DNA of 20,333 nucleotides from a virus (taxonomy: Duplodnaviria > Heunggongvirae > Uroviricota > Caudoviricetes): IMG/VR virus record IMGVR_UViG_2778261452_000004, positions 1 to 20,333 of that record. One strand, 5' to 3'. Each line of letters begins with the position of its first letter. Positions within the stretch are counted from its first letter, which is position 1. Shown piece after piece: positions 1-20,333 of the stretch. A program made the position numbers and the translations under genes. Under the pieces are notes generated by a model that saw nothing but the letters and a program-made list of their open reading frames with translations, was not told where the DNA came from and did not search any database.

Positions 1-411
1 ATGGCTCAGGTTGCCCTTTTTAAAGAAATATTTGATCAAGTGCGGAAAGATTTAAACTGTGACCGATTTTACTCTGAACTAAAACGTCACAATGTCTCAC
101 ATTACATTTACTATTTAGCCACAGGTAATATTCACGTTGTATTGAAAAATGATAACGCAGTGTTAATAAAAGGACTTGAGGAGGTTGTGAATGTTAAATT
201 TCGCAGAGACACGCGACTTATAGAAACTTACTCTCATAAGTTGAAATCAAGAGAAATCACATTTCATGAATACAGGGAAAATCTGGCTAAGGCTGGAGTT
301 TTCCGATGGGTTACAAATGTCCATGAACACAAAAGGTATTACTATACCTTTGACAACTCATTATTGTTTACCGAAAGCATTCAGAACACGACACAATTTT
401 TTCCACGCTAA
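1..411 (+). CDS. DUF1398-family prophage protein (YdfO/YbcV-like), 136 aa
   Basis: Complete ORF in the supplied track (ATG at 1, stop at 409-411). Protein recognised from memory as the DUF1398 family that sits beside bor in DLP12/Qin-type prophages; no search run. Confidence 0.7.
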
Positions 412-2633: not shown

Positions 2634-3377
2634 TTATTCTTGAGTAACACTTAAACTCATCTCATTGAATGCAGCCATCCTGTAACCTGCCGGTGTAACA
2701 CCAAAATAACTCCTGAATACGCTGATAAAATAAGATGTAAAATTATAGCCACACTGAGCAGCGATTCTGTTGATGGCGCAACGAGATTGATTCAACAGCA
2801 TTGCTGCCATTCTCATTCTCTCTGTAAGCAACAACTCACTGAAACAGGTGCCTTCTTCTTTCAGTCTTTTTTTTAACAAACTTTCACTGATACATAACCG
2901 CGAAGACACATCTCTCAGAGTCCAGTTTGCTGCAATGTCCGTACGAAACAATGCACTAAGCCTGTCACTAATATTGCCAATACACGCGGTCAGAAACGAC
3001 GAAAACATTTTCTCTGATGAGAAAAACGCCAGACACGAAAAGGAAAGCATTTCCGCTAAATTGTCCGTATGAATCTTTTCCTCACAAAGATAATCAATCA
3101 GGATGCCCATCAATTCTGCCTTCGGAAAACTCACGCAAAGATATCGTGGTATTTGCCGGACTAAAACTACATCCTGTTTTTCGTCTCCACACAACAGGTA
3201 ACGGCTAATTGTCGATTCACTGAGACTTATTCGCCGAAAACATTCCGAAAAGGGCAATAACGATCCAGCTCCCCCCCTGACAAGAAGTGCACTACCACTT
3301 TCAAGAGAGAGCTCTTTTCCTTCAAAGAGCACAACAAACGGGGAATGAACAAAAACAACAGAACAGGCTTCATTCAT
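2634..3377 (-). CDS. AraC/XylS-family transcriptional regulator (prophage moron), 247 aa
   Basis: C-terminal AraC-type HTH signature (…RIAAQCGYNFTSYFISVFRSYFGVTPAGYR). Track ORF 2634..3530 trimmed to ATG at 3377, because the upstream in-frame stretch contains a terminator hairpin and an AT-rich promoter-like segment. Confidence 0.8.
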   Translation of the reverse strand: MNEACSVVFVHSPFVVLFEGKELSLESGSALLVRGGAGSLLPFSECFRRISLSESTISRYLLCGDEKQDVVLVRQIPRYLCVSFPKAELMGILIDYLCEEKIHTDNLAEMLSFSCLAFFSSEKMFSSFLTACIGNISDRLSALFRTDIAANWTLRDVSSRLCISESLLKKRLKEEGTCFSELLLTERMRMAAMLLNQSRCAINRIAAQCGYNFTSYFISVFRSYFGVTPAGYRMAAFNEMSLSVTQE

Positions 3378-3499
3378 ATCAATTGCCCTGACATTACTGG
3401 TCACAAGATAAGTATATATCGATTTACAAAAATACAAGCCGAAAGACCAGTATTCGCAACCACCAGCACGTTTTATGTTCTCTGCCGTTTTTCGGACAT

Positions 3500-3521
3500 A
3501 AAAAACCCGCTCAATGGCGGG
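3500..3521 (-). terminator. Rho-independent terminator about 85 nt downstream of the Q-like gene (candidate tR')
   Basis: Minus strand reads cccgccattgagcggg followed by tttttt (plus strand 3501-3521: aaaaa cccgc tcaatg gcggg). Confidence 0.5.
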
Positions 3522-3606
3522 TTGTATCAAAGTTCATGCGCTTGGTTCACCTCGCGATACAGCTTTGCGAAGCTTAGCAAAATTGAAGCGGTTTATGCGT
3601 AAAAAA

Positions 3607-4436: not shown

Positions 4437-5035
4437 TACGCAAACTCCAGTAGCTGCGCGGCCACATTTTCGACCTGTTCCGGAGAGGAAAATTTACGGA
4501 ACAGAATCCAGTTCCACAGCACATTCAGTACAGATTTATAAACCTGCTGAAACTCGGTTTCGTCCATATTCGCAAACGCGATGGATTTCGCCCTGCGCCC
4601 ACGGCTACCGTCCGGATAAATATGCTCGGTGTAAAATCCGGCCTGAATGGTTACCCACTCGCGGAAAGCCTCAAACGACATTAGCAATGCCGTATCACGG
4701 GTTCTGCGTGTCGCAACTGTATTCAGATATTGCTCTGCGGCTTCGCTCAGAGCTGGCGTATGTTCCCGGCCTACTGATTCACACAGGTAATCAACGAAAC
4801 CGGACACCAGTTTTCGTTCGCTAGGCGTGATCGCCCCACCGACCGGAGTCCAGTAATCGAAACCCAGTTGCAGGAGTTTGAAAAAACGCTTGTGGAATGC
4901 GTAGTTACGCACACGCTTAAAGTCTGCGTGTATCCACTCACCTATTTTGATTTGATGCAGAAAATCGCAACTCTCCGGCGTCGCCGGGAGAAGTAAACCA
5001 GAAGAAGTTTGTTTGACCAGTTGTATATGCGCCAT
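4436..5035 (-). CDS. Nin-region phage protein, DUF1367/YbcN-like, 199 aa
   Basis: Complete track ORF directly upstream of and translationally coupled to the YbcO-like gene; family assignment from memory only. Confidence 0.5.
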   Translation of the reverse strand: MAHIQLVKQTSSGLLLPATPESCDFLHQIKIGEWIHADFKRVRNYAFHKRFFKLLQLGFDYWTPVGGAITPSERKLVSGFVDYLCESVGREHTPALSEAAEQYLNTVATRRTRDTALLMSFEAFREWVTIQAGFYTEHIYPDGSRGRRAKSIAFANMDETEFQQVYKSVLNVLWNWILFRKFSSPEQVENVAAQLLEFA

Positions 5036-5308
5036 TTCTCAATCTCTCGATGGCGCAGTGCAGCAGATGCCAGTTGTTCAGGCCGACGTATAAAGTATAA
5101 ATAAACTGATTCCAGTGTAAAGCCCCCACATTGATGGAATAAAAACCAAACAACAGATTGCTGGGATAAAAACAACGCTTATTATTAAAAGCGGTTAAAC
5201 AAATTAAATTTTAATGTTATGCAAATCTACCAGATCACCATAATATCTCATTTGAAAACCACTGAAATAACAACCCTATCAGGATTAATCATATTAAGGT
5301 GAGTAAAT

Positions 5309-5395
5309 ATGGAAAACAACAAATCTGCACATTACGCTCCTTTTTTATCTGTAATACTTTTTGTTTTATGCTGTGCGTGGGCATTATTTTTATAA
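5309..5395 (+). CDS. Candidate small hydrophobic peptide, 28 aa (MENNKSAHYAPFLSVILFVLCCAWALFL)
   Basis: Not in the track (under 60 aa). Found by reading: ATG at 5309 with AAGGTGAG 5 nt upstream, stop TAA at 5393-5395; polar N-terminus then one 17-residue hydrophobic helix; AT-rich region beside hok. Confidence 0.3.
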   Translation: MENNKSAHYAPFLSVILFVLCCAWALFL

Positions 5396-5501
5396 AAATA
5401 TTTACAGATAAAATAAACCCGCCAAAGCTGGTTAAGTGTGGGTGCGTTGAGGATGCATAATACATCAGAGGTGGCGAGGGATTTCTCCCTCGCCCGGTCT
5501 C

Positions 5502-5657
5502 TTACTCCTCAGGTTCGTAAGCTGTGAAGACAGCGACCTCCGTCTGCCCGGTTCGGATTCGTACCTCGCAGAGGTCTTTCCTCGTTACCAGCGCCGTCAC
5601 AATGACGGTTAAACAGATGACGATCAGGGCGATTAACATCGCCTTTTGCTGCTTCAT
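5502..5657 (-). CDS. hok: Hok/Gef-family type I toxin, 51 aa
   Basis: MKQQKAMLIALIVICLTVIVTALVTRKDLCEVRIRTGQTEVAVFTAYEPEE matches HokD/Gef-type toxins as recalled. Track ORF 5502..5714 carries an in-frame 19-codon upstream extension; the canonical Hok start is ATG at 5657. Confidence 0.85.
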   Translation of the reverse strand: MKQQKAMLIALIVICLTVIVTALVTRKDLCEVRIRTGQTEVAVFTAYEPEE

Positions 5658-5830
5658 AGCCTGCTTCTCCTTGCCTTTCGACACGTAAGAGGCTAACCTA
5701 CATGTGCAAAGCATGAAATTGGCCTCAGATTAATGTTAAGCGTCTTGCCGGACGCGTAATGTTAACTGGGGCTTTTCTCTATCTGCCTTTTGGTGTTCAT
5801 GCCTGAGGCAGATAGCCTCAAGCACCCGCA
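5658..5830. promoter_or_regulatory. hok leader region; expected site of promoter, mok start and antisense Sok RNA (plus strand)
   Basis: Inference from the known hok/sok architecture; the region holds several hairpins (gcgtcttgccggacgc at about 5740-5755; atctgcct…aggcagat at about 5782-5816). Sok ends not determined. Confidence 0.3.
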
Positions 5831-6214
5831 GCAATTCTAACTATCCAATAGATCAATGCCAACTTCTTTTCCTGCAACATCTCTCATCATAAGTGACCGA
5901 AATTCATCCAATCAGCACAAAAGAAACATTTAAAGCGTGAATGCTACCGAACGTTCATTTCAATTACATCGTTTTGATTTTTAACAGTTTTCACCTCAAC
6001 AAATCAAATGGCATTAGCATTCATCATGGAAGAAAGACTGATAAAAATGATCATTTTCAATGACTTATGATCACACCGGGTATTGCCAAGTCATTCCTTT
6101 TACGCCAGGATACCCACAAGTGAGTAGTCGAGGAGAATTTGCCAATTTTTGCGAAATAAATTTCAATGTCCGAAGAACCATTAATTGTTAATTGATTCTG
6201 TATAAGGTATTAAC

Positions 6215-7312
6215 ATGACAATTTCATATATTCCTATTCTGAAAGCGAAACGTTCTGAGTTATCAGCTTTATCGCAGCTATCCATTGAAAAGAAATCAAA
6301 AATTTTGCCATTACTCGAAATTGAACCAGTGCCAATTGACCCTGATTCAGGTATTGCCTTAAAGAGTTATAACGAGACTCTTATAGAGTTCGGAAAGAAA
6401 GTCTCAAAATCTTGCTCAGATATGCAAGGTGTTTATATTGATGGATTATTAATTGAAGAGCATTTTATTTCTCCTGAAGATCATTACCCTATAATAAATG
6501 CGGTTAATCAAGTTAGAGATATGGGGATAAGAGTTATTCCTGTCAGTTCACCAACTCGCCCATCTAACTATAAAAGAGCGATTGATGAATTAATGCAGAA
6601 TGAAATATGCTTGAGATTAACCACGTTAGATCTGGTTAACCCACAATTAATAACGCATTACATTAATCATCTGGGAATTCCTTTATCAAATATTGATATA
6701 ATTATTGACTTAAGAGATGAGTTAACCGAGGATAAACTTAATTCCGGCGAACTATATACTTTGGCAATGGGATTGATAAACAATCTGGCGCACCTCAATG
6801 AATACAGAAAAGTGATTCTTTCTGGGGGTTCATTTCCTACAGATCTCAGTGATATTTCTGTTGGTCTATATTCTCAACCTCGAATCGAGTGGATTTTATG
6901 GCAGAGTTTAATGAATAGAAAAGAACTTGCCAGAAATGTGATTTATAGTGATTATGGAGTACAGCACCCCGACTTTAATAGGCTTTCGACGCGATTCCCT
7001 AGCGTATCTGCCAGCGTCAGATACTCTGGAGATAATGACTTTTGGGTATTTCGAGGAAGAGTAGCTAATCGCTTTGGTTATGAACAATATGGTAAACATA
7101 GTGAGGATATTCTTGCTCATCGAGAATATTCAGGGCCTACATTCTGTGCGGGAGATAGAGACATAGAATATTATGCAAACGAGTATCAAGCCTACAAAGC
7201 CAATCCCTCTGGTAACTATAAATTTGGTAGCCCAGAGGTATGGCGTAGGATTGGGCAAAACCATCACATAACTAAGGTTGTTGAGCAACTCGCCACTCTT
7301 TACGGGCTTTAA
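6215..7312 (+). CDS. 'Beta protein'/sce7725-family protein, 365 aa; candidate defence-module component
   Basis: Complete track ORF with AAGG ribosome-binding site; strongly AT-rich, A/T-ending codons unlike the flanking phage genes; N-terminus MTISYIPILKAKRSELSAL resembles the Beta_protein family as recalled (unverified). Confidence 0.8.
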   Translation: MTISYIPILKAKRSELSALSQLSIEKKSKILPLLEIEPVPIDPDSGIALKSYNETLIEFGKKVSKSCSDMQGVYIDGLLIEEHFISPEDHYPIINAVNQVRDMGIRVIPVSSPTRPSNYKRAIDELMQNEICLRLTTLDLVNPQLITHYINHLGIPLSNIDIIIDLRDELTEDKLNSGELYTLAMGLINNLAHLNEYRKVILSGGSFPTDLSDISVGLYSQPRIEWILWQSLMNRKELARNVIYSDYGVQHPDFNRLSTRFPSVSASVRYSGDNDFWVFRGRVANRFGYEQYGKHSEDILAHREYSGPTFCAGDRDIEYYANEYQAYKANPSGNYKFGSPEVWRRIGQNHHITKVVEQLATLYGL

Positions 7313-7850
7313 GTTTAACTCGAACAGCTTCACGAAGCTCGCCAACATCCATACTATTGGCGAGTTTTGACCATAAGACGCGTTTAGGTTTATTTTTCAA
7401 ATTCTGTAGCTCCCCTGCATCACTTAATAGGGAAAGCAATTCATCTTTCCAAAGAAGCATTGTTAAGGAAAGTTTGTCCACTTGTGGATTCAACTTGCTA
7501 GTTCGAATTGTTTTTAAATGGATACCTTGCCGTGCACCTTGCGTAACTTGCTTTATCCCCCACCATGATGGAACTATGCTTAAAGCATCATAAAGATGGC
7601 AATCAGAGACAACCAACGTTACTTTATCCATCACAGATGAGTAATGTTGCACCTGCGCTGGTAATCTGAGCAAGTTATCACTCTTGCTCTTCAACTCATA
7701 ACCATGTATAAGCCCATTGATCACTGCTATATCAGCTCTGCTAGCCCCTAGATTCATCGTAAACTCATCAATGATTAGGGTGTCAGGATCTTTATGATGA
7801 TCTCTCAGAATCTTGGCATGCACAGCCTTTCTTACATCAATGTCTCTCAT
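7272..7850 (-). CDS. sce7726-like protein with PD-(D/E)xK nuclease-like motif, 192 aa; candidate partner of the beta-like gene
   Basis: Complete track ORF convergent with the beta-like gene and overlapping it by 41 bp at the 3' ends; motif IIDEF…RADIAVINGLIHGYELKSK (D40, E52-x-K54) fits a restriction-endonuclease-like core. Confidence 0.8.
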   Translation of the reverse strand: MRDIDVRKAVHAKILRDHHKDPDTLIIDEFTMNLGASRADIAVINGLIHGYELKSKSDNLLRLPAQVQHYSSVMDKVTLVVSDCHLYDALSIVPSWWGIKQVTQGARQGIHLKTIRTSKLNPQVDKLSLTMLLWKDELLSLLSDAGELQNLKNKPKRVLWSKLANSMDVGELREAVRVKLKARKEWRVAQQP

Positions 7851-8155
7851 ACCATAGTTGCGCTTTCATCGACTCTCTCAAGCCATGATTCTATATCATG
7901 GTTCGCATGAATGCCATTTGATATGACCAGTGGTTAAACATTGCACAGAAAAGTAGATGTGTATTTTAACAAAAGCAATGACGGCTAACCATGTTGGTAT
8001 GTCGATAAAATGTTTCAACGTAAGCATTATCTGTTCCGCCCTTTCAGACGGCCTCCTGATGTTCTGAGGGTGCAGAATCCCTCCGGTTAAGGATTTAATA
8101 AAAATCGTTTCTGATTTAAATCTTCAGTATTTAGTTGTTAGTCGGTTTATAGCCT

Positions 8156-8467
8156 TTATGCTTCGGCCTTATTTCTCAGCCATACACAAACCGGGCCATC
8201 TTCGGTGTCATGTATTGAACCAATAAACCATCCATTGCCTTCTGGTCGTTCCGGTTCCCATGCAGAAATATCAGCATCACACGCATCAAGGTCAGCACAT
8301 CCTTCATCTCTGAAGCAGAGGACGTATTGAAGATTATTTTCCTCCATCCAGGCGTTAAACTCTTCCGTTGAAATATATTCCCGACCGTCACAGAATTTTT
8401 CATATTCAGGATGTGCCCAGCAGCCATATTCATCACGTTCTACTGGTATTTCTCTAATTTCATTCAT
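8156..8467 (-). CDS. Hypothetical phage protein, acidic and Cys-containing, 103 aa
   Basis: Complete track ORF; start overlaps the upstream gene end; co-directional with the replication operon. Confidence 0.55.
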   Translation of the reverse strand: MNEIREIPVERDEYGCWAHPEYEKFCDGREYISTEEFNAWMEENNLQYVLCFRDEGCADLDACDADISAWEPERPEGNGWFIGSIHDTEDGPVCVWLRNKAEA

Positions 8468-8714
8468 TTCTGTTCTCCCACGTTTTCAGACTTTCACCGC
8501 AGAACGGGCAAAATGAAACCCGAACTGGTGATTTAGAAAATTCACCGGAGCGCAACGTCACCAAATCAGGGGCGCGAGTTAAATTCTCATTCCAGATTTT
8601 GTATATCAGCAGACCTTTTCGCTTCGTGTATTCAGCATCATGCTCAAGGGCTTTTGCCAGTACCGCACATGGTTCTATCTGATTGCCATTAACCTGACAT
8701 TTTGATTCGCTCAC
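8460..8714 (-). CDS. Small putative zinc-ribbon protein (Cys clusters incl. CPFCG), about 84 aa from a GTG start
   Basis: Track ORF 8460..8783 would overlap the upstream gene by 73 nt from its ATG. GTG at 8714 overlaps the upstream stop (GTGA) and has AGGAGG 7 nt upstream. Confidence 0.4.
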   Translation of the reverse strand: MSESKCQVNGNQIEPCAVLAKALEHDAEYTKRKGLLIYKIWNENLTRAPDLVTLRSGEFSKSPVRVSFCPFCGESLKTWENRNE

Positions 8715-9133
8715 AGCATCACCTCCTGAAATTTCCCCTGATAAAACGCCAGCACTCGCTGCATAGCTTCGCTTTTCCGGCACTCGCGACAGATTATGTT
8801 CATACGCCTGTCGTAGCGACGTATTTCTCCGTCGGGTAATGACCAGATAAGGTCAGGATCAACTACAACCGGTTTCTTCACCTTTGCCCTCGATAGTTTT
8901 TTGCGGGCGTTTTGCCAGTCCTTACGAGCCTGTTCAGAGGGAAATAACCCGTAGCCAGAGTTGTATACATCACCACTGGCGACCAGTTCTCTTGCGAGAA
9001 CGCTCATTAAATATCTTGTCGCACCTGTCTTAGCTTCCAGTTGTCGTAACGTCTCGCGCCCACTCCGGCGTACTAGCTCAACAACCTGCCCTTTAATTTT
9101 TTCTCGCTCTTCCTGTGTAAATACTTTTGCCAT
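8711..9133 (-). CDS. Hypothetical phage protein, 140 aa
   Basis: Track ORF 8711..9199 trimmed to ATG at 9133 with GGGGAGGG upstream; basic, possibly DNA-binding. Confidence 0.55.
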   Translation of the reverse strand: MAKVFTQEEREKIKGQVVELVRRSGRETLRQLEAKTGATRYLMSVLARELVASGDVYNSGYGLFPSEQARKDWQNARKKLSRAKVKKPVVVDPDLIWSLPDGEIRRYDRRMNIICRECRKSEAMQRVLAFYQGKFQEVML

Positions 9134-13507: not shown

Positions 13508-14017
13508 TTATTCGAAGCGCTTAGTGCAAGGGTTCCATGCTTCAAATATTAGTTCCTCATAGTCGGGATCGAGTTGAAAATGGGAGCTATTGCCTAATGA
13601 ACACTTTCTAACAAAACGAATTATTCCCATCCTGACAAGCAAGGCTGTACTTTGATTTTCAGGACAAAGCGTAAGTAGGTCATTGAACTGGAGGAATGAT
13701 TCAATAATACGAATTTGTTCTGCATTTAGCGAATTCAGATTTTTTAGCATTTTGCGCTTTTTTACAAAATCCCGAATCAGGTAGAACATTCTCAAGAAAA
13801 GGATTACTACTCTATCAAGGATTAAAGTCGAGACAAAGGCTATGCTGAAGCAAAATAGCTGCATGGAATATGGAATGGCGCTTTTCTTTTCCAGATACTC
13901 TGACAAGTTTTCTGGTACCAACATTAATATCAGAAAAAATATAACTATAGTAATCATAAACCGACTAACTGATTTTTCGGCAAAGAATTTTGCCAATGTT
14001 AAAAGACTTTCTAACAT
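13508..14017 (-). CDS. sieB: Superinfection exclusion protein SieB-like membrane protein, about 169 aa
   Basis: Track ORF 13508..14140 trimmed to ATG at 14017; two strongly hydrophobic helices; position between the pL-proximal small genes and kil corresponds to sieB in Rac/lambda. Start uncertain. Confidence 0.65.
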   Translation of the reverse strand: MLESLLTLAKFFAEKSVSRFMITIVIFFLILMLVPENLSEYLEKKSAIPYSMQLFCFSIAFVSTLILDRVVILFLRMFYLIRDFVKKRKMLKNLNSLNAEQIRIIESFLQFNDLLTLCPENQSTALLVRMGIIRFVRKCSLGNSSHFQLDPDYEELIFEAWNPCTKRFE

Positions 14018-14292
14018 TTCAATAACTCTCAACTGTAAGGGTATTGAAATGTTAACACAAGCTCTCGCTGTAGGGGTATAGCAGAGACCACCGAAGCCCG
14101 GAGGTGGTGAAATAAAACCGGGCACAACACGAAGGCGCATTTCCGATATCCATAAAGAGTCGGTTTTGTCTGTTAAATTTAAATGGTGGGAGTGCGCCTC
14201 CGGTTGTAAATAACGACATTGCTGTGTGTAGTCTTGGCGGCATCAGTTTTTTCTTGAAGTTCGGCTGATGTCCGCCCCTTTTTAAAGTGAAT

Positions 14293-14913: not shown

Positions 14914-17547
14914 ATGAGCACTGATAAAGAAGAATTTGCACTATATTGCGAAGCAAAAAATGACAAAGTAAGAAAACGCCTAGGAATTAAAGGTGGTTTT
15001 TACTGGACTACAGCAAAAAAATTATCTGTTGCAATCTCCCGCTGCATTACCGCAATGGATGACAACGATTATGATGAAGACGACTTTAAAAAACCCGTCC
15101 GCGTCAATTTGCCCGTTGTTGACGACCTTCCGCCAGAAGGCGTGTTTGATACTGAATTCTGCAACCGCTATGAAAAAGGCGGGAAAGATGGCATCACAAT
15201 GACATTTATCGGCCCTTCCCCCTCTGTTCAAGACAAATCAGCCAGCACTGATAATACCAACATCAACGGCGAAGACATGACTGAGATTGAGGAGAGCATG
15301 CTTCTACCTGTCTCCGGTCAGGAACTGCCCATTCGTTGGCTTGCTCAACACGGCAGCGAAAAACCAGTAACGCACGTTTCACGCGACGAACTCCAGGCAT
15401 TACACATTGCACGGGCTGAAGAACTACCGGCTGTTACTGCCCTGGCTGTTTCCCACAAAACCAGCCTGCTCGACCCGCTGGAAATTCGCGAACTCCACAA
15501 ACTGGTTCGTGACACTGACAAAGTTTTCCCTAATCCTGGTAATTCAAACCTGGGACTGATAACTGCTTTTTTCGAAGCATACCTGAACGCTGACTACACC
15601 GATCGAGGACTGCTGACAAAAGAGTGGATGAAGGGTAATCGTGTTTCACACATCACTCGCACGGCTTCCGGTGCTAATGCTGGCGGCGGAAACCTCACCG
15701 ATCGCGGCGAAGGTTTCGTACACGATCTGACGTCACTGGCGCGCGACGTAGCCACTGGCGTACTGGCCCGTTCAATGGATCTGGACATCTATAACCTTCA
15801 TCCGGCACACGCTAAACGCATTGAGGAAATTATCGCTGAAAATAAACCGCCCTTTTCTGTTTTCCGCGACAAATTCATCACCATGCCTGGCGGGCTGGAT
15901 TATTCCCGCGCCATCGTGGTTGCGTCCGTAAAAGAAGCACCAATTGGGATCGAGGTCATCCCCGCGCACGTCACTGAATATCTGAACAAAGTACTGACTG
16001 AAACCGATCATGCCAACCCTGATCCGGAAATCGTGGATATTGCCTGCGGTCGCTCCTCTGCCCCGATGCCGCAGCGAGTAACAGAAGAAGGAAAACAGGA
16101 TGATGAAGAAAAACCGCAACCATCTGGAACAACGGCAGTTGAACAGGGAGAGGCTGAAACAATGGAACCGGACGCAACTGAACATCATCAGGACACGCAG
16201 CCGCTGGATGCTCAGTCACAGGTAAATTCTGTTGATGCGAAATATCAGGAACTGCGGGCAGAACTCCATGAAGCCCGGAAAAACATTCCATCAAAAAATC
16301 CTGTCGATGCCGATAAATTGCTTGCTGCATCACGTGGTGAATTTGTTGACGGAATTTGCGACCCGAACGATCCGAAATGGGTAAAGGGGATCCAGACTCG
16401 CGATTGTGTGTACCAGAACCAGCCAGAAACGGAAAAAACCAGCCCAGATATGAATCAACCTGAGCCAGTAGTGCAACAGGAACCGGAAATAGCCTGCAAT
16501 GCCTGCGGCCAGACTGGCGGGGATAACTGCCCTGACTGTGGTGCGGTGATGGGCGACGCAACATACCAGGAAACATTCGATGAAGAGAGTCAGGTTGAAG
16601 CTAAGGAAAATGATCCGGAGGAAATGGAAGGCGCTGAACATCCGCACAATGAGAATGCTGGCAGCGATCCGCATCACGATTGCAGTGATGAAACTGGCGA
16701 AGTCGCAGATCCCGTAATCGTAGAAGACATAGAGCCAGGTATTTATTACGGAATTTCGAATGAGAATTACCACGCGGGTCCCGGTATCAGTAAGTCTCAG
16801 CTCGATGACATTGCTGATACTCCGGCACTATATTTGTGGCGTAAAAATGCCCCCGTGGACACCACAAAGACAAAAACGCTCGATTTAGGAACTGCTTTCC
16901 ACTGCCGGGTACTTGAACCGGAAGAATTCAGTAACCGCTTTATCGTAGCACCTGAATTTAACCGCCGTACAAACGCCGGAAAAGAAGAAGAGAAAGCGTT
17001 TCTGATGGAATGCGCAAGCACAGGAAAAACGGTTATCACTGCGGAAGAAGGCCGGAAAATTGAACTCATGTATCAAAGCGTTATGGCTTTGCCGCTGGGG
17101 CAATGGCTTGTTGAAAGCGCCGGACACGCTGAATCATCAATTTACTGGGAAGATCCTGAAACAGGAATTTTGTGTCGGTGCCGTCCGGACAAAATTATCC
17201 CTGAATTTCACTGGATCATGGACGTGAAAACTACGGCGGATATTCAACGATTCAAAACCGCTTATTACGACTACCGCTATCACGTTCAGGATGCATTCTA
17301 CAGTGACGGTTATGAAGCACAGTTTGGAGTGCAGCCAACTTTCGTTTTTCTGGTTGCCAGCACAACTATTGAATGCGGACGTTATCCGGTTGAAATTTTC
17401 ATGATGGGCGAAGAAGCAAAACTGGCAGGTCAACAGGAATATCACCGCAATCTGCGAACCCTGTCTGACTGCCTGAATACCGATGAATGGCCAGCTATTA
17501 AGACATTATCACTGCCCCGCTGGGCTAAGGAAAATGCAAATGACTAA
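14914..17547 (+). CDS. recE: Exodeoxyribonuclease VIII RecE, 877 aa
   Basis: Full-length track ORF; sequence recognised as Rac RecE (C-terminal nuclease domain); GAGGT ribosome-binding site; overlaps recT start. Confidence 0.95.
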
Positions 17548-19097: not shown

Positions 19098-20333
19098 ATG
19101 TCTAAATTACCAACAGGTGTCGAGATTAGAGGTAGATACATTCGCATCTGGTTCATGTTTCGAGGAAAACGATGTCGGGAAACATTAAAAGGCTGGGAGA
19201 TTACAAACAGTAATATTAAAAAGGCCGGAAATTTAAGAGCGCTGATAGTTCATGAAATAAACTCCGGTGAATTTGAGTATTTAAGACGTTTTCCCCAGTC
19301 CAGCACTGGGGCAAAAATGGTGACAACGAGAGTCATAAAAACGTTCGGAGAGCTTTGTGATATCTGGACAAAAATTAAAGAGACAGAGTTAACAACAAAC
19401 ACAATGAAGAAAACGAAATCACAATTAAAAACACTCAGAATAATAATTTGTGAAAGTACCCCGATATCACATATTCGTTATAGCGATATCTTAAACTACC
19501 GGAATGAACTGCTGCATGGAGAAACGCTTTACCTGGATAATCCAAGATCCAACAAAAAAGGAAGAACCGTGCGCACAGTTGATAACTATATCGCCCTGCT
19601 CTGTTCGCTGTTGCGTTTTGCGTATCAGTCGGGATTTATATCAACCAAACCATTTGAAGGAGTAAAAAAATTACAGCGAAACAGAATAAAGCCTGATCCG
19701 TTATCTAAAACAGAATTCAATGCATTAATGGAAAGTGAAAAAGGACAGAGCCAGAACTTGTGGAAATTTGCCGTTTACTCAGGACTTCGTCACGGGGAAC
19801 TGGCAGCTCTGGCGTGGGAGGATGTGGATCTCGAAAAGGGAATAGTGAATGTCAGAAGAAACCTGACGATACTTGATATGTTCGGTCCCCCAAAAACAAA
19901 TGCCGGGATCCGAACAGTAACACTACTGCAGCCTGCTCTTGAAGCACTGAAGGAGCAATACAAACTGACCGGGCATCATCGCAAAAGCGAAATCACCTTT
20001 TATCATCGGGAGTACGGCAGAACCGAAAAGCAAAAACTGCATTTTGTTTTCATGCCCAGGGTGTGTAACGGAAAACAAAAACCTTATTACTCGGTAAGCA
20101 GTTTGGGGGCAAGGTGGAATGCAGCAGTAAAACGTGCTGGTATTCGCCGCCGTAATCCGTACCATACGCGGCATACTTTTGCCTGCTGGCTGTTGACGGC
20201 AGGAGCGAACCCGGCATTTATAGCCAGCCAAATGGGGCATGAAACTGCGCAGATGGTGTATGAAATTTACGGTATGTGGATTGATGACATGAACGACGAA
20301 CAGATAGCCATGTTGAATGCGCGGTTATCGTAG
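19098..20333 (+). CDS. intR: Tyrosine site-specific integrase (Rac IntR-like), 411 aa
   Basis: Full-length track ORF ending with TAG at 20331-20333; C-terminal catalytic segment with conserved R/H-x-x-R/Y context (…HTRHTFACWLL…VYEIYGMW). Confidence 0.95.
   Translation: MSKLPTGVEIRGRYIRIWFMFRGKRCRETLKGWEITNSNIKKAGNLRALIVHEINSGEFEYLRRFPQSSTGAKMVTTRVIKTFGELCDIWTKIKETELTTNTMKKTKSQLKTLRIIICESTPISHIRYSDILNYRNELLHGETLYLDNPRSNKKGRTVRTVDNYIALLCSLLRFAYQSGFISTKPFEGVKKLQRNRIKPDPLSKTEFNALMESEKGQSQNLWKFAVYSGLRHGELAALAWEDVDLEKGIVNVRRNLTILDMFGPPKTNAGIRTVTLLQPALEALKEQYKLTGHHRKSEITFYHREYGRTEKQKLHFVFMPRVCNGKQKPYYSVSSLGARWNAAVKRAGIRRRNPYHTRHTFACWLLTAGANPAFIASQMGHETAQMVYEIYGMWIDDMNDEQIAMLNARLS

What the first reader, a model, noticed from the sequence alone, without database searches (positions are those of the whole stretch)
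5150..8155. AT-rich accessory island of about 3 kb inserted between the nin-like genes and the replication-side genes
Between the YbcN-like gene (ends 5035) and the 103-aa phage gene (8156) the sequence changes character: long AT-rich intergenic stretches, genes on both strands, and none of the content is lambdoid core. It holds hok, a 28-aa peptide ORF and the beta/sce7726 pair. On either side, genes are tightly packed, co-directional and translationally coupled. This is the pattern of a cargo island, the kind of place where prophages carry defence or virulence genes.
Basis: partly seen in the sequence, partly recalled or inferred. Interest (0 to 1): 0.6.

Follow-up and report, generated by a model that had tools for sequence, protein, structure and literature searches.

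The report
Prophage cargo slot with nuclease pair
A Rac-like E. coli prophage carries, in a slot that related prophages fill with other anti-phage systems, a two-gene cassette (a TIM-barrel "beta" protein and a predicted nuclease) that lacks the toxin genes of its two tested relatives, P4 gop-beta-cII and PD-lambda-2.

Summary
The window is a Rac-like lambdoid prophage. Its lowest-GC 2.2 kb (5840-8035, GC 0.378; window 0.452, flanks about 0.50) is a swappable cassette with two convergent genes whose 3' ends overlap: beta (6215-7312, +) and sce7726 (7272-7850, -).

The hok/sok module (5415-5839) and the AT-rich spacer with the 28-aa ORF belong to the conserved backbone.

Related prophages fill the slot between hok and the DUF977 gene with Kiwa, a DUF262 enzyme (HEC-06), an OLD-like ATPase plus a methylase, NUDIX plus HAD hydrolases, small phage genes, or almost nothing (BL21). 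Only 91 of 5426 complete E. coli genomes carry this block.

sce7726 is a homologue of P4 cII, with a PD-(D/E)XK nuclease fold and invariant E-D-ExK and QxxxY residues. Beta is a TIM barrel related to P4 beta and PD-lambda-2C.

In 77 of 80 loci from many phyla the two genes are convergent, and in 75 of those they overlap. None has gop; 13 have the PD-lambda-2 Xre-peptidase.

Best reading: a minimal gop-less beta-cII defence or addiction module in a prophage defence hotspot. This is a new variant of a known kind. Its function is inferred, not shown.

The parts
5036..5414 (.). AT-rich spacer (GC 0.327) between the NinB-like DUF1367 gene and hok. It is conserved backbone in Rac-like relatives and holds the unannotated 28-aa ORF (5309-5395, +).
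   Evidence: 94-95% identical in L002-L004, which carry other cargo. GC. The ORF is intact in L001-L004 and is preceded by AAGGTGAG. It is absent from the 15-billion-protein collection.
5415..5839 (-). hok/sok type I toxin-antitoxin module. hokD CDS is 5502-5657, and the in-frame 70-codon mok-like ORF runs to 5714. It is the conserved left anchor of the cargo slot.
   Evidence: Pfam HOK_GEF 2.7e-23. Rfam sok RF01794 scores 118 bits at 5652-5827 on the - strand. Ends 5415 (5405 in L008) and 5839 recur in L005-L008. Promoter-like TTGGCA-17-TAGAAT at 5862-5834.
5840..8035 (.). The beta/sce7726 cassette proper. It is the lowest-GC 2.2 kb of the window and is bounded by the hok module and a widespread 64-bp element.
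   Evidence: Junctions from BLAST against L002-L008 and L090 and (matches begin at query positions 175-186, which is window 8025-8036). GC 0.378.
6215..7312 (+). beta family protein, 365 aa. Predicted TIM barrel with a C-terminal helical extension, related to P4 beta and PD-lambda-2C.
7272..7850 (-). sce7726 / Phage_P4_cII family protein, 192 aa. Predicted PD-(D/E)XK nuclease with a helical C-terminal domain. It is convergent with beta, and the 3' ends overlap by 41 nt (7272-7312).
7851..8035 (-). 5' region of sce7726, with a promoter-like site ATGGCA-18-TAGAAT (7917-7888).
   Evidence: Consensus scan, 9 of 12 matches; not above the chance expectation for the region.
8036..8099 (-). 64-bp conserved intergenic element downstream of the 103-aa gene. 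It forms the right junction of the cassette.
   Evidence: Most of the 2297 genomes that match query 7851-8760 match only this stretch, usually in unannotated intergenic DNA or beside a DUF7167 gene. A copy is also present in L003.
8156..8714 (-). Two small overlapping phage genes (103 aa at 8156-8467; 84 aa at 8460-8714). They form a separate variable sub-module that is absent from some relatives.
   Evidence: PHROGs 1372 and 4030, function unknown. Present without beta/sce7726 in L006 and other prophages. Absent from L002, L004, L005, L007 and L008; L003 keeps only the 64-bp element.
8711..9133 (-). DUF977 gene, the conserved right anchor of the cargo slot.
   Evidence: PF06163 5.8e-29. Homology with relatives resumes at 8706-8738.

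Best explanation
Window 5840-8035 is a self-contained two-gene cassette sitting in a recombination-exchangeable cargo slot of Rac/Qin-type lambdoid prophages. The slot lies between the hok/sok module and the DUF977 gene, which corresponds to the position between the replication genes and the nin genes.

The cassette is the minimal form of the beta-cII module known from satellite P4 (gop-beta-cII) and from PD-lambda-2. Those two are tested anti-phage systems thought to work by abortive infection.

Proposed mechanism (inferred):
- The sce7726/cII protein is a PD-(D/E)XK DNA nuclease and acts as the effector.
- The TIM-barrel beta protein holds the nuclease in check, or senses infection and switches it on.
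- The convergent, 3'-overlapping layout couples the expression of the two genes through transcriptional interference or antisense pairing.
- In a lysogen the pair would protect the host and prophage against superinfecting phages, or act as an addiction module.

The cassette reached this position by homologous exchange between prophages that share the flanking hok and DUF977 sequences.

Shown here: the borders, the variability of the slot, family membership, predicted folds, conserved catalytic residues, and conserved gene pairing. Inferred: nuclease activity, which protein is effector and which is regulator, and any anti-phage phenotype.
For: Slot:
- The hok/sok end at 5839 is identical in four other prophage contexts, and homology resumes at 8706-8738.
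- Cargo in relatives includes KwaA plus KwaB, HEC-06, HEC-04 plus a methylase, NUDIX plus HAD hydrolases, QueH, small phage genes, or an empty site.
- The same block sits in a different nin and replication backbone in O103 strain ML775.
- 91 of 5426 genomes carry it. It is the lowest-GC stretch of the window.

Family:
- Beta_protein 2.4e-52, PD-Lambda-2_C 1.4e-41, sce7726 3.2e-56, PADLOC cll 1.4e-28.
- RefSeq names P4 cII 'sce7726 family', and P4 has the same beta-then-convergent-cII layout.
- gop-beta-cII protects against lambda and P1 (PMC9122126). [quoted passage not shown]

Nuclease:
- Invariant E29, D40, E52-x-K54 and Q66-xxx-Y70.

Pairing:
- 77 of 80 loci from diverse phyla have beta convergent to sce7726; 75 of the 77 overlap, median 53 nt.
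- Pairwise identities of the two proteins correlate, r 0.84, Mantel test 0 of 999.
- No gop anywhere in these loci. Xre-peptidase is present in 13 of 77, so the two-gene form is the common one.
Against: - No experiment addresses the two-gene form. PADLOC has models only for the three-gene systems.
- In both tested relatives the identified toxin is another protein (Gop; PD-lambda-2B), not cII.
- The cloned PD-lambda-2 fragment (ECOR42 228989-232396; genes 229385-232009) leaves only 396 bp beyond beta. It therefore could not hold an intact convergent cII gene, yet it defended. Beta can therefore contribute to defence without this nuclease.
- The invariant polar residues of beta sit at the ends of barrel strands, as in enzymes. 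Beta may therefore be a catalyst rather than a simple inhibitor.
- The promoter-like sites are no more frequent than chance.
- No terminator or special RNA structure was found in the overlap.
Confidence: 0.6

Rival explanations
1. The pair is mainly an addiction or stabilisation (toxin-antitoxin) module for the prophage. It would act like the neighbouring hok/sok, with no real role against other phages.
For: Gop and beta were described as a toxin-antitoxin pair, and PD-lambda-2 as TA-like. The cassette lies next to hok/sok. K-12 Qin carries relBE at the same place beside hokD (PMC6379469).
Against: Both tested relatives gave anti-phage phenotypes. The slot holds non-TA defence systems such as Kiwa and HEC-06. 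Addiction and abortive infection are not mutually exclusive.
Confidence: 0.2
2. The pair serves the phage's own DNA metabolism. For example, a repair or recombination nuclease (the best structural match is the MmcB-like protein 3dnx) working with a TIM-barrel enzyme that modifies or processes DNA or nucleotides.
Against: The TIM-barrel hits are generic, at 4-15% identity, and none stands out. The cassette is present in under 2% of genomes and is freely replaced by unrelated cargo. The pair also occurs between the lysis and terminase genes and in chromosomes of many phyla. Beta is transcribed against the phage early operon.
Confidence: 0.1
3. The cassette is a decayed remnant of a three-gene system that lost its toxin gene, and is no longer functional.
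For: Neither gop nor the HigB and Xre-peptidase genes are present. IS elements often land in this region in relatives.
Against: Both ORFs are full length, with every family-invariant residue present. The exact proteins recur on many contigs (586 for beta, 34 for sce7726). The two-gene form is the majority across phyla, 64 of 77 loci. A second two-gene pair, 54% identical, exists in another E. coli prophage slot.
Confidence: 0.05

Closest known systems
gop-beta-cII of satellite phage P4 (Rst_gop_beta_cll; Ghisotti 1990, Rousset 2022)
   Same: Homologous beta (PF14350) and cII/sce7726 (PF26915, NF033832) proteins. Same convergent beta-then-cII layout. Carried in a variable hotspot of a mobile element. 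P4 coordinates are, and protection against lambda and P1.
   Different: No gop gene (tblastn and phmmer negative). Identity is only 22.7% for beta and 28.4% for cII. The PADLOC 'beta' model barely matches (2e-4), whereas PD-Lambda-2_C matches well. The window protein is 192 aa against 264 aa for P4 cII. The genes overlap by 41 nt here, whereas P4 has a 27-nt gap holding a terminator. The host element is a lambdoid prophage, not a P4 satellite.
PD-lambda-2 (Vassallo et al. 2022)
   Same: The window beta is a good match to PD-Lambda-2_C (1.4e-41, nearly full length). In 13 of 77 sce7726-seeded loci, beta is preceded by a PD-Lambda-2_B-type Xre-peptidase (up to 3.7e-155), with a HigB-like or other small ORF upstream of it.
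   Different: The window has neither the HigB-like A gene nor the Xre-peptidase B gene. PD-lambda-2 as defined has no cII/sce7726 component, and the cloned fragment could not have held an intact one.
Prophage and satellite defence hotspots (P2 and P4 hotspots of Rousset 2022; P2 hotspots of Vassallo 2022)
   Same: A fixed position between conserved phage genes, filled with different defence systems in different genomes. Kiwa, HEC-06 and HEC-04 plus a methylase are seen here.
   Different: This slot is in Rac/Qin-type lambdoid prophages, between hok/sok and DUF977. My searches of the held papers found no description of it as a hotspot. It also holds non-defence cargo such as small phage genes, QueH, and NUDIX plus HAD hydrolases.
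hok/sok (Mok_Hok_Sok) type I toxin-antitoxin
   Same: A complete hok/sok module lies at 5415-5839.
   Different: It is the conserved anchor of the slot, not part of the variable cargo. It has no known functional link to the beta/sce7726 pair.

Membership tests
gop-beta-cII (P4) defence system | A beta protein (PF14350) | tested here: met
   PF14350 2.4e-52 over the full length, but only 22.7% identity to P4 beta. The PADLOC 'beta' model gives 2e-4 over 37 residues.
gop-beta-cII (P4) defence system | A cII protein (Phage_P4_cII / sce7726 family) convergent to beta | tested here: met
   NF033832 3.2e-56. PADLOC cll 1.4e-28. Convergent layout as in P4.
gop-beta-cII (P4) defence system | A gop toxin gene directly upstream of beta in the same operon | tested here: not met
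   tblastn of P4 Gop against window 5000-8800 gives no meaningful hit (E 9.3). There is no ORF over 43 aa on the + strand in 5840-6214.
gop-beta-cII (P4) defence system | Anti-phage phenotype (lambda, P1) and Gop toxicity relieved by beta | not testable with these tools
   Needs plaque and toxicity assays.
PD-lambda-2 | Component C (beta family) | tested here: met
   PD-Lambda-2_C 1.4e-41, residues 4-362.
PD-lambda-2 | Component A (HigB-like) and component B (Xre HTH fused to an M78 peptidase) upstream of C | tested here: not met
   The 375 bp upstream of beta holds no such ORFs, and the genes scanned in and beside the region gave no PADLOC hit to A or B.
PD-(D/E)XK nuclease superfamily (for sce7726) | Restriction-endonuclease-like fold with conserved acidic residues and a lysine (D ... 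(D/E)xK) | tested here: met
PD-(D/E)XK nuclease superfamily (for sce7726) | Metal-dependent nuclease activity | not testable with these tools
   Needs biochemistry.
hok/sok type I toxin-antitoxin | Hok toxin ORF plus the upstream mRNA leader and sok antisense region | tested here: met
   HOK_GEF 2.7e-23. Rfam RF01794 scores 118 bits against a gathering score of 59.
Prophage defence hotspot | Conserved flanks with variable content that includes recognised defence systems in other genomes | tested here: met
   Flanks. Content. PADLOC hits to Kiwa, HEC-06, HEC-04 and a type II methylase. This was a sample, not a census.

The most novel reading that the evidence does not exclude
The convergent, 3'-overlapping beta (TIM barrel) plus cII/sce7726 (PD-(D/E)XK nuclease) pair is itself a complete anti-phage system, ancient and spread across many phyla. 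On this reading, P4 gop-beta-cII and PD-lambda-2 are the same core with add-on toxin modules (Gop; HigB plus Xre-peptidase). Beta would be an enzyme-like sensor that can arm different effectors, and the overlap would be part of the control circuit. Current detection tools would then miss most instances, because they require the third gene.
Probability: 0.4. Interest if true: 0.65.

Novelty: new variant of a known kind. Interest (0 to 1): 0.45.

Why it matters
- The work turns a vague "AT-rich island" into a mapped cargo slot of Rac/Qin-type prophages, with sharp junctions at 5839/5840 and about 8710. Such a slot can be mined for further defence candidates.
- It links two separately named defence systems, gop-beta-cII and PD-lambda-2, through a shared core. 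That core is far more widespread than either system: relatives were confirmed at 450 places in a collection with one genome per species, across many phyla.
- It gives the uncharacterised P4 cII protein a concrete, testable prediction: a nuclease with residues E29, D40, E52 and K54.
- If the two-gene form defends on its own, the rules used by PADLOC and similar tools undercount this family.
- As a sequence feature it is otherwise ordinary. The genes are already named in RefSeq and Pfam, and in phage Rac-SA53 they are annotated 'beta' and 'CII phage-like'.

Tried and rejected
- A gop-like or HigB/Xre-peptidase third gene in the window: none found.
- Flanking direct or inverted repeats that would mark site-specific insertion of the cassette: none at the junctions.
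- A shared operator. The 16-nt inverted repeat upstream of both genes (6000-6015 and 7910-7925) is absent from 14 homologous cassettes, so it is probably chance or lineage-specific.
- Intrinsic terminators and promoters: counts are no higher than in shuffled sequence.
- The 58-aa ORF at 5289-5465 (-). An ORF in the corresponding gap of Rac-SA53 is annotated 'rem', but that spacer does not match the window's. The window ORF also has no similarity to BL21 Rem.
- The 28-aa ORF as a known small protein: not present in the protein collection.
- Literature on sce7725/sce7726: only incidental listings, with no functional work in the held library.
Full report
**Context.** The window is a Rac-like lambdoid prophage of E. 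coli.
- On the + strand it carries intR (19098-20333), recT and recE (14914-17547).
- On the - strand it carries the immunity, replication and nin genes, then a Q-like antiterminator and the lysis genes.
- No complete E. coli genome matches more than 68% of the window in one place. The phage is therefore a mosaic of common modules.

**Checking the observation.**
- Composition. The region 5150-8155 has GC 0.390, against about 0.50 on both sides. The stretch 5840-8035 (GC 0.378) is the lowest-GC 2.2-kb window of the whole sequence. Beta has the lowest third-position GC (0.298) of the 24 genes measured.
- Other low-GC patches exist in the window, so AT-richness alone does not single this region out.
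- The listed genes are real. hokD matches Pfam HOK_GEF at 2.7e-23. The Rfam sok model scores 118 bits at 5652-5827 on the - strand. The beta family protein matches PF14350 at 2.4e-52. The sce7726 family protein matches NF033832 at 3.2e-56.
- The flanking genes are co-directional with overlaps of 1-8 nt.

**Where the island really begins and ends.**
- BLAST against nine related prophage loci gives sharp junctions.
- The hok/sok module is a discrete 425-bp unit, 5415-5839. Its right end falls at exactly 5839 in L005-L008, and its left end at 5415 (5405 in L008). These are four different prophage contexts.
- The hok/sok module matches in about 4800 of 5426 genomes.
- The AT-rich spacer 5036-5414 is conserved at 94-95% in three Rac-like relatives that carry other cargo.
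- On the right, shared sequence resumes at 8706-8738, the 3' end of the DUF977 gene (8711-9133).
- The variable zone is therefore 5840-8710, and it has two parts.
- The first part is the beta/sce7726 cassette, 5840-8035.
- The second part is a small-gene module, 8036-8714, with a 103-aa and an 84-aa ORF. This module occurs in other prophages without the cassette.
- The joint between the two parts is a 64-bp element (8036-8099). Most of the 2297 genomes matched by that query match only this element.

**The slot is a cargo hotspot.**
- Between hok and DUF977, relatives carry varied content:
  - KwaA plus KwaB (Kiwa, 1e-101 and 3e-159) together with QueH;
  - a DUF262 enzyme (PADLOC HEC-06, 4e-221) with a TPR protein;
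  - an OLD-like ATPase (HEC-04) with a cytosine methylase;
  - a nucleoid-associated protein with an unknown gene;
  - NUDIX plus HAD hydrolases;
  - eight small phage genes;
  - in BL21(DE3), only 261 bp.
- In K-12 Qin the relBE genes sit beside hokD (PMC6379469).
- Only 91 of 5426 genomes carry at least 80% of 5000-8300.
- The same hok-beta-sce7726-103aa-84aa-DUF977 block lies in a different nin and replication backbone in O103 strain ML775. It also occurs in the sequenced phage Rac-SA53, where the two genes were annotated 'beta' and 'CII phage-like protein'.
- No repeats mark the junctions.
- Exchange by homologous recombination between shared flanks is the likely route. Such exchange has been shown experimentally for lambdoid phages and defective prophages (PMC3945230). 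This phage encodes RecET.
- L007 holds a second copy of the last 41 bp of the hok module (5799-5839), lying between Kiwa and QueH. This looks like a trace of such stacking.

**The two proteins.**
- sce7726 belongs to the P4 cII family, recorded as PF26915 Phage_P4_cII in precomputed hits. RefSeq names P4 cII 'sce7726 family'.
- In 35 diverse homologues, E29, D40, E52, K54, Q66 and Y70 are invariant. This is a PD-(D/E)XK motif plus QxxxY, which from my own knowledge is typical of RecB-like nucleases.
- The invariant polar residues of beta (K12, D76, R134, D165, R223, D246, R269) lie at or just after the ends of predicted strands. That is where TIM-barrel enzymes place their active sites. This is an inference.
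- Neither family has a solved structure of a close relative.

**The pair is a conserved unit.**
- A scan of one genome per species confirmed relatives of sce7726 at 450 places. The best 80 loci span Proteobacteria, Firmicutes, Actinobacteria, Acidobacteria, Chloroflexi, Myxococcota, CPR and others.
- In 77 of the 80, a beta gene is convergent to sce7726. In 75 of those the 3' ends overlap, with a median of 53 nt. Two of the three exceptions lie close to a contig end; the third (L017) has about 2.8 kb of sequence beyond sce7726 but no beta.
- Pairwise identities of the two proteins correlate, with r 0.84 and a Mantel test of 0 in 999.
- None of the loci has gop.
- Thirteen have an Xre-HTH/peptidase_M78 gene of the PD-Lambda-2_B type directly upstream of beta. 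Ten of the thirteen were inspected further: six also have a HigB-like small ORF upstream, and most of the others have a different, roughly 160-aa ORF there.
- A second pair, 54% identical, sits between the Rz and Nu1 genes of other E. coli lambdoid prophages. It too has only two genes.
- The two-gene form in the window is therefore the common form, not a remnant.

**Relation to known systems.**
- P4 gop-beta-cII protects against lambda and P1, and Gop is toxic without beta (PMC9122126). A phage gene, orf184, triggers its toxicity (bioRxiv 10.1101/2023.04.06.535777).
- PD-lambda-2 consists of a HigB-like protein, an Xre-peptidase and beta. It gives abortive-infection defence, and beta is needed for defence but not for neutralising the toxin (PMC9519451).
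- The window has the beta and cII parts but none of the toxin parts. It therefore fails the membership test for both named systems while sharing their core.
- The PD-lambda-2 clone left only 396 bp beyond beta. It could not have held an intact convergent cII gene, so beta can act in defence without this nuclease. This weakens a strict model in which the nuclease is the only effector, and it suggests that beta is a modular sensor or activator.

**Mechanism and confidence.**
- I put 0.6 on the reading that this is a minimal beta-cII defence or addiction module. In that reading the nuclease is the effector, beta is the regulator, and the overlap acts as an expression coupler.
- The rivals are a pure addiction module (0.2), phage DNA metabolism (0.1) and a dead remnant (0.05).
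- No part of the function has been shown. The fold, motifs, pairing and context are the tested parts.

**Verdict.**
- The genes are already named in public annotation, so this is not a new kind of element.
- It is a new, untested variant of a known kind. The link it reveals between two named systems is useful, and the nuclease prediction for P4 cII is testable.

Noticed in passing
window 5309-5395 (+): The 28-aa ORF MENNKSAHYAPFLSVILFVLCCAWALFL has a polar head and a hydrophobic tail and is preceded by AAGGTGAG. It is intact in four relatives, with only Ala-to-Val changes, and is better conserved than its surroundings. No annotation or protein collection holds it. It could be a small membrane peptide or type I toxin, or a chance ORF.
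   Followed up: partly
L007 3901-3941 versus window 5799-5839: The last 41 bp of the hok module (the hok -10 box and the mRNA 5' stem) occur a second time in L007, between the Kiwa genes and QueH. This suggests that cargo modules are stacked by recombination at this short sequence.
   Followed up: partly
window 8036-8099: A 64-bp intergenic element with two small hairpins is the only stretch of query 7851-8760 that most of the 2297 matching E. coli genomes share. It usually lies downstream of a 103-aa-type gene or beside a DUF7167 gene, and it marks the right junction of the cassette. Its function is unknown.
   Followed up: partly
window 6000-6015 and 7910-7925: A 16-nt inverted repeat (15 of 16 bases) places the same ATCAAATGGCATT sequence upstream of both convergent genes. 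Near sce7726 it overlaps the -35-like ATGGCA. It is not found in 14 homologous cassettes, so it is probably chance or lineage-specific.
   Followed up: yes
L030, L044, L050, L051, L055, L057, L076, L080, L081, L083, L085, L086, L088: Loci with the PD-lambda-2 gene set (a small upstream ORF that is HigB-like in about half the inspected loci, then Xre-peptidase, then beta) also have a convergent, overlapping sce7726/cII gene. That gene is not part of the published three-gene definition.
   Followed up: partly
L091 3134-4763 (E. coli contig JAKYQU010000047): A second beta/cII pair, 54% identical and also with only two genes and overlapping ends, sits between the Rz lysis gene and the Nu1 terminase gene of other E. 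coli lambdoid prophages. That is a different classical moron site.
   Followed up: partly
window 1-411, 636-929, 2634-3530, 13508-14140: The window holds other accessory genes: a DUF1398 protein, a Bor-family lipoprotein, an AraC-type regulator (GC 0.416) between the Q-like antiterminator and the holin, and a weak SieB-like superinfection-exclusion protein.
   Followed up: partly
window 5478-5489 and 8008-8015; L003, L004, L090: IS elements repeatedly land in the AT-rich spacers of this region in relatives. IS421 is inserted at 5478-5489 (the flanking matches overlap by 12 bp, consistent with a target duplication). IS1 is inserted at about 8008-8015 in Rac-SA53, whose record notes an 8-bp duplication. 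IS1203, IS3, IS600, IS2 and IS5 occur in others.
   Followed up: partly
phage collection hits H157-H166: sce7726 homologues at 31-42% identity occur in Gordonia, Mycolicibacterium, Myxococcus (Mx4) and Bacillus phages. The family is therefore carried by phages of very different hosts.
   Followed up: no
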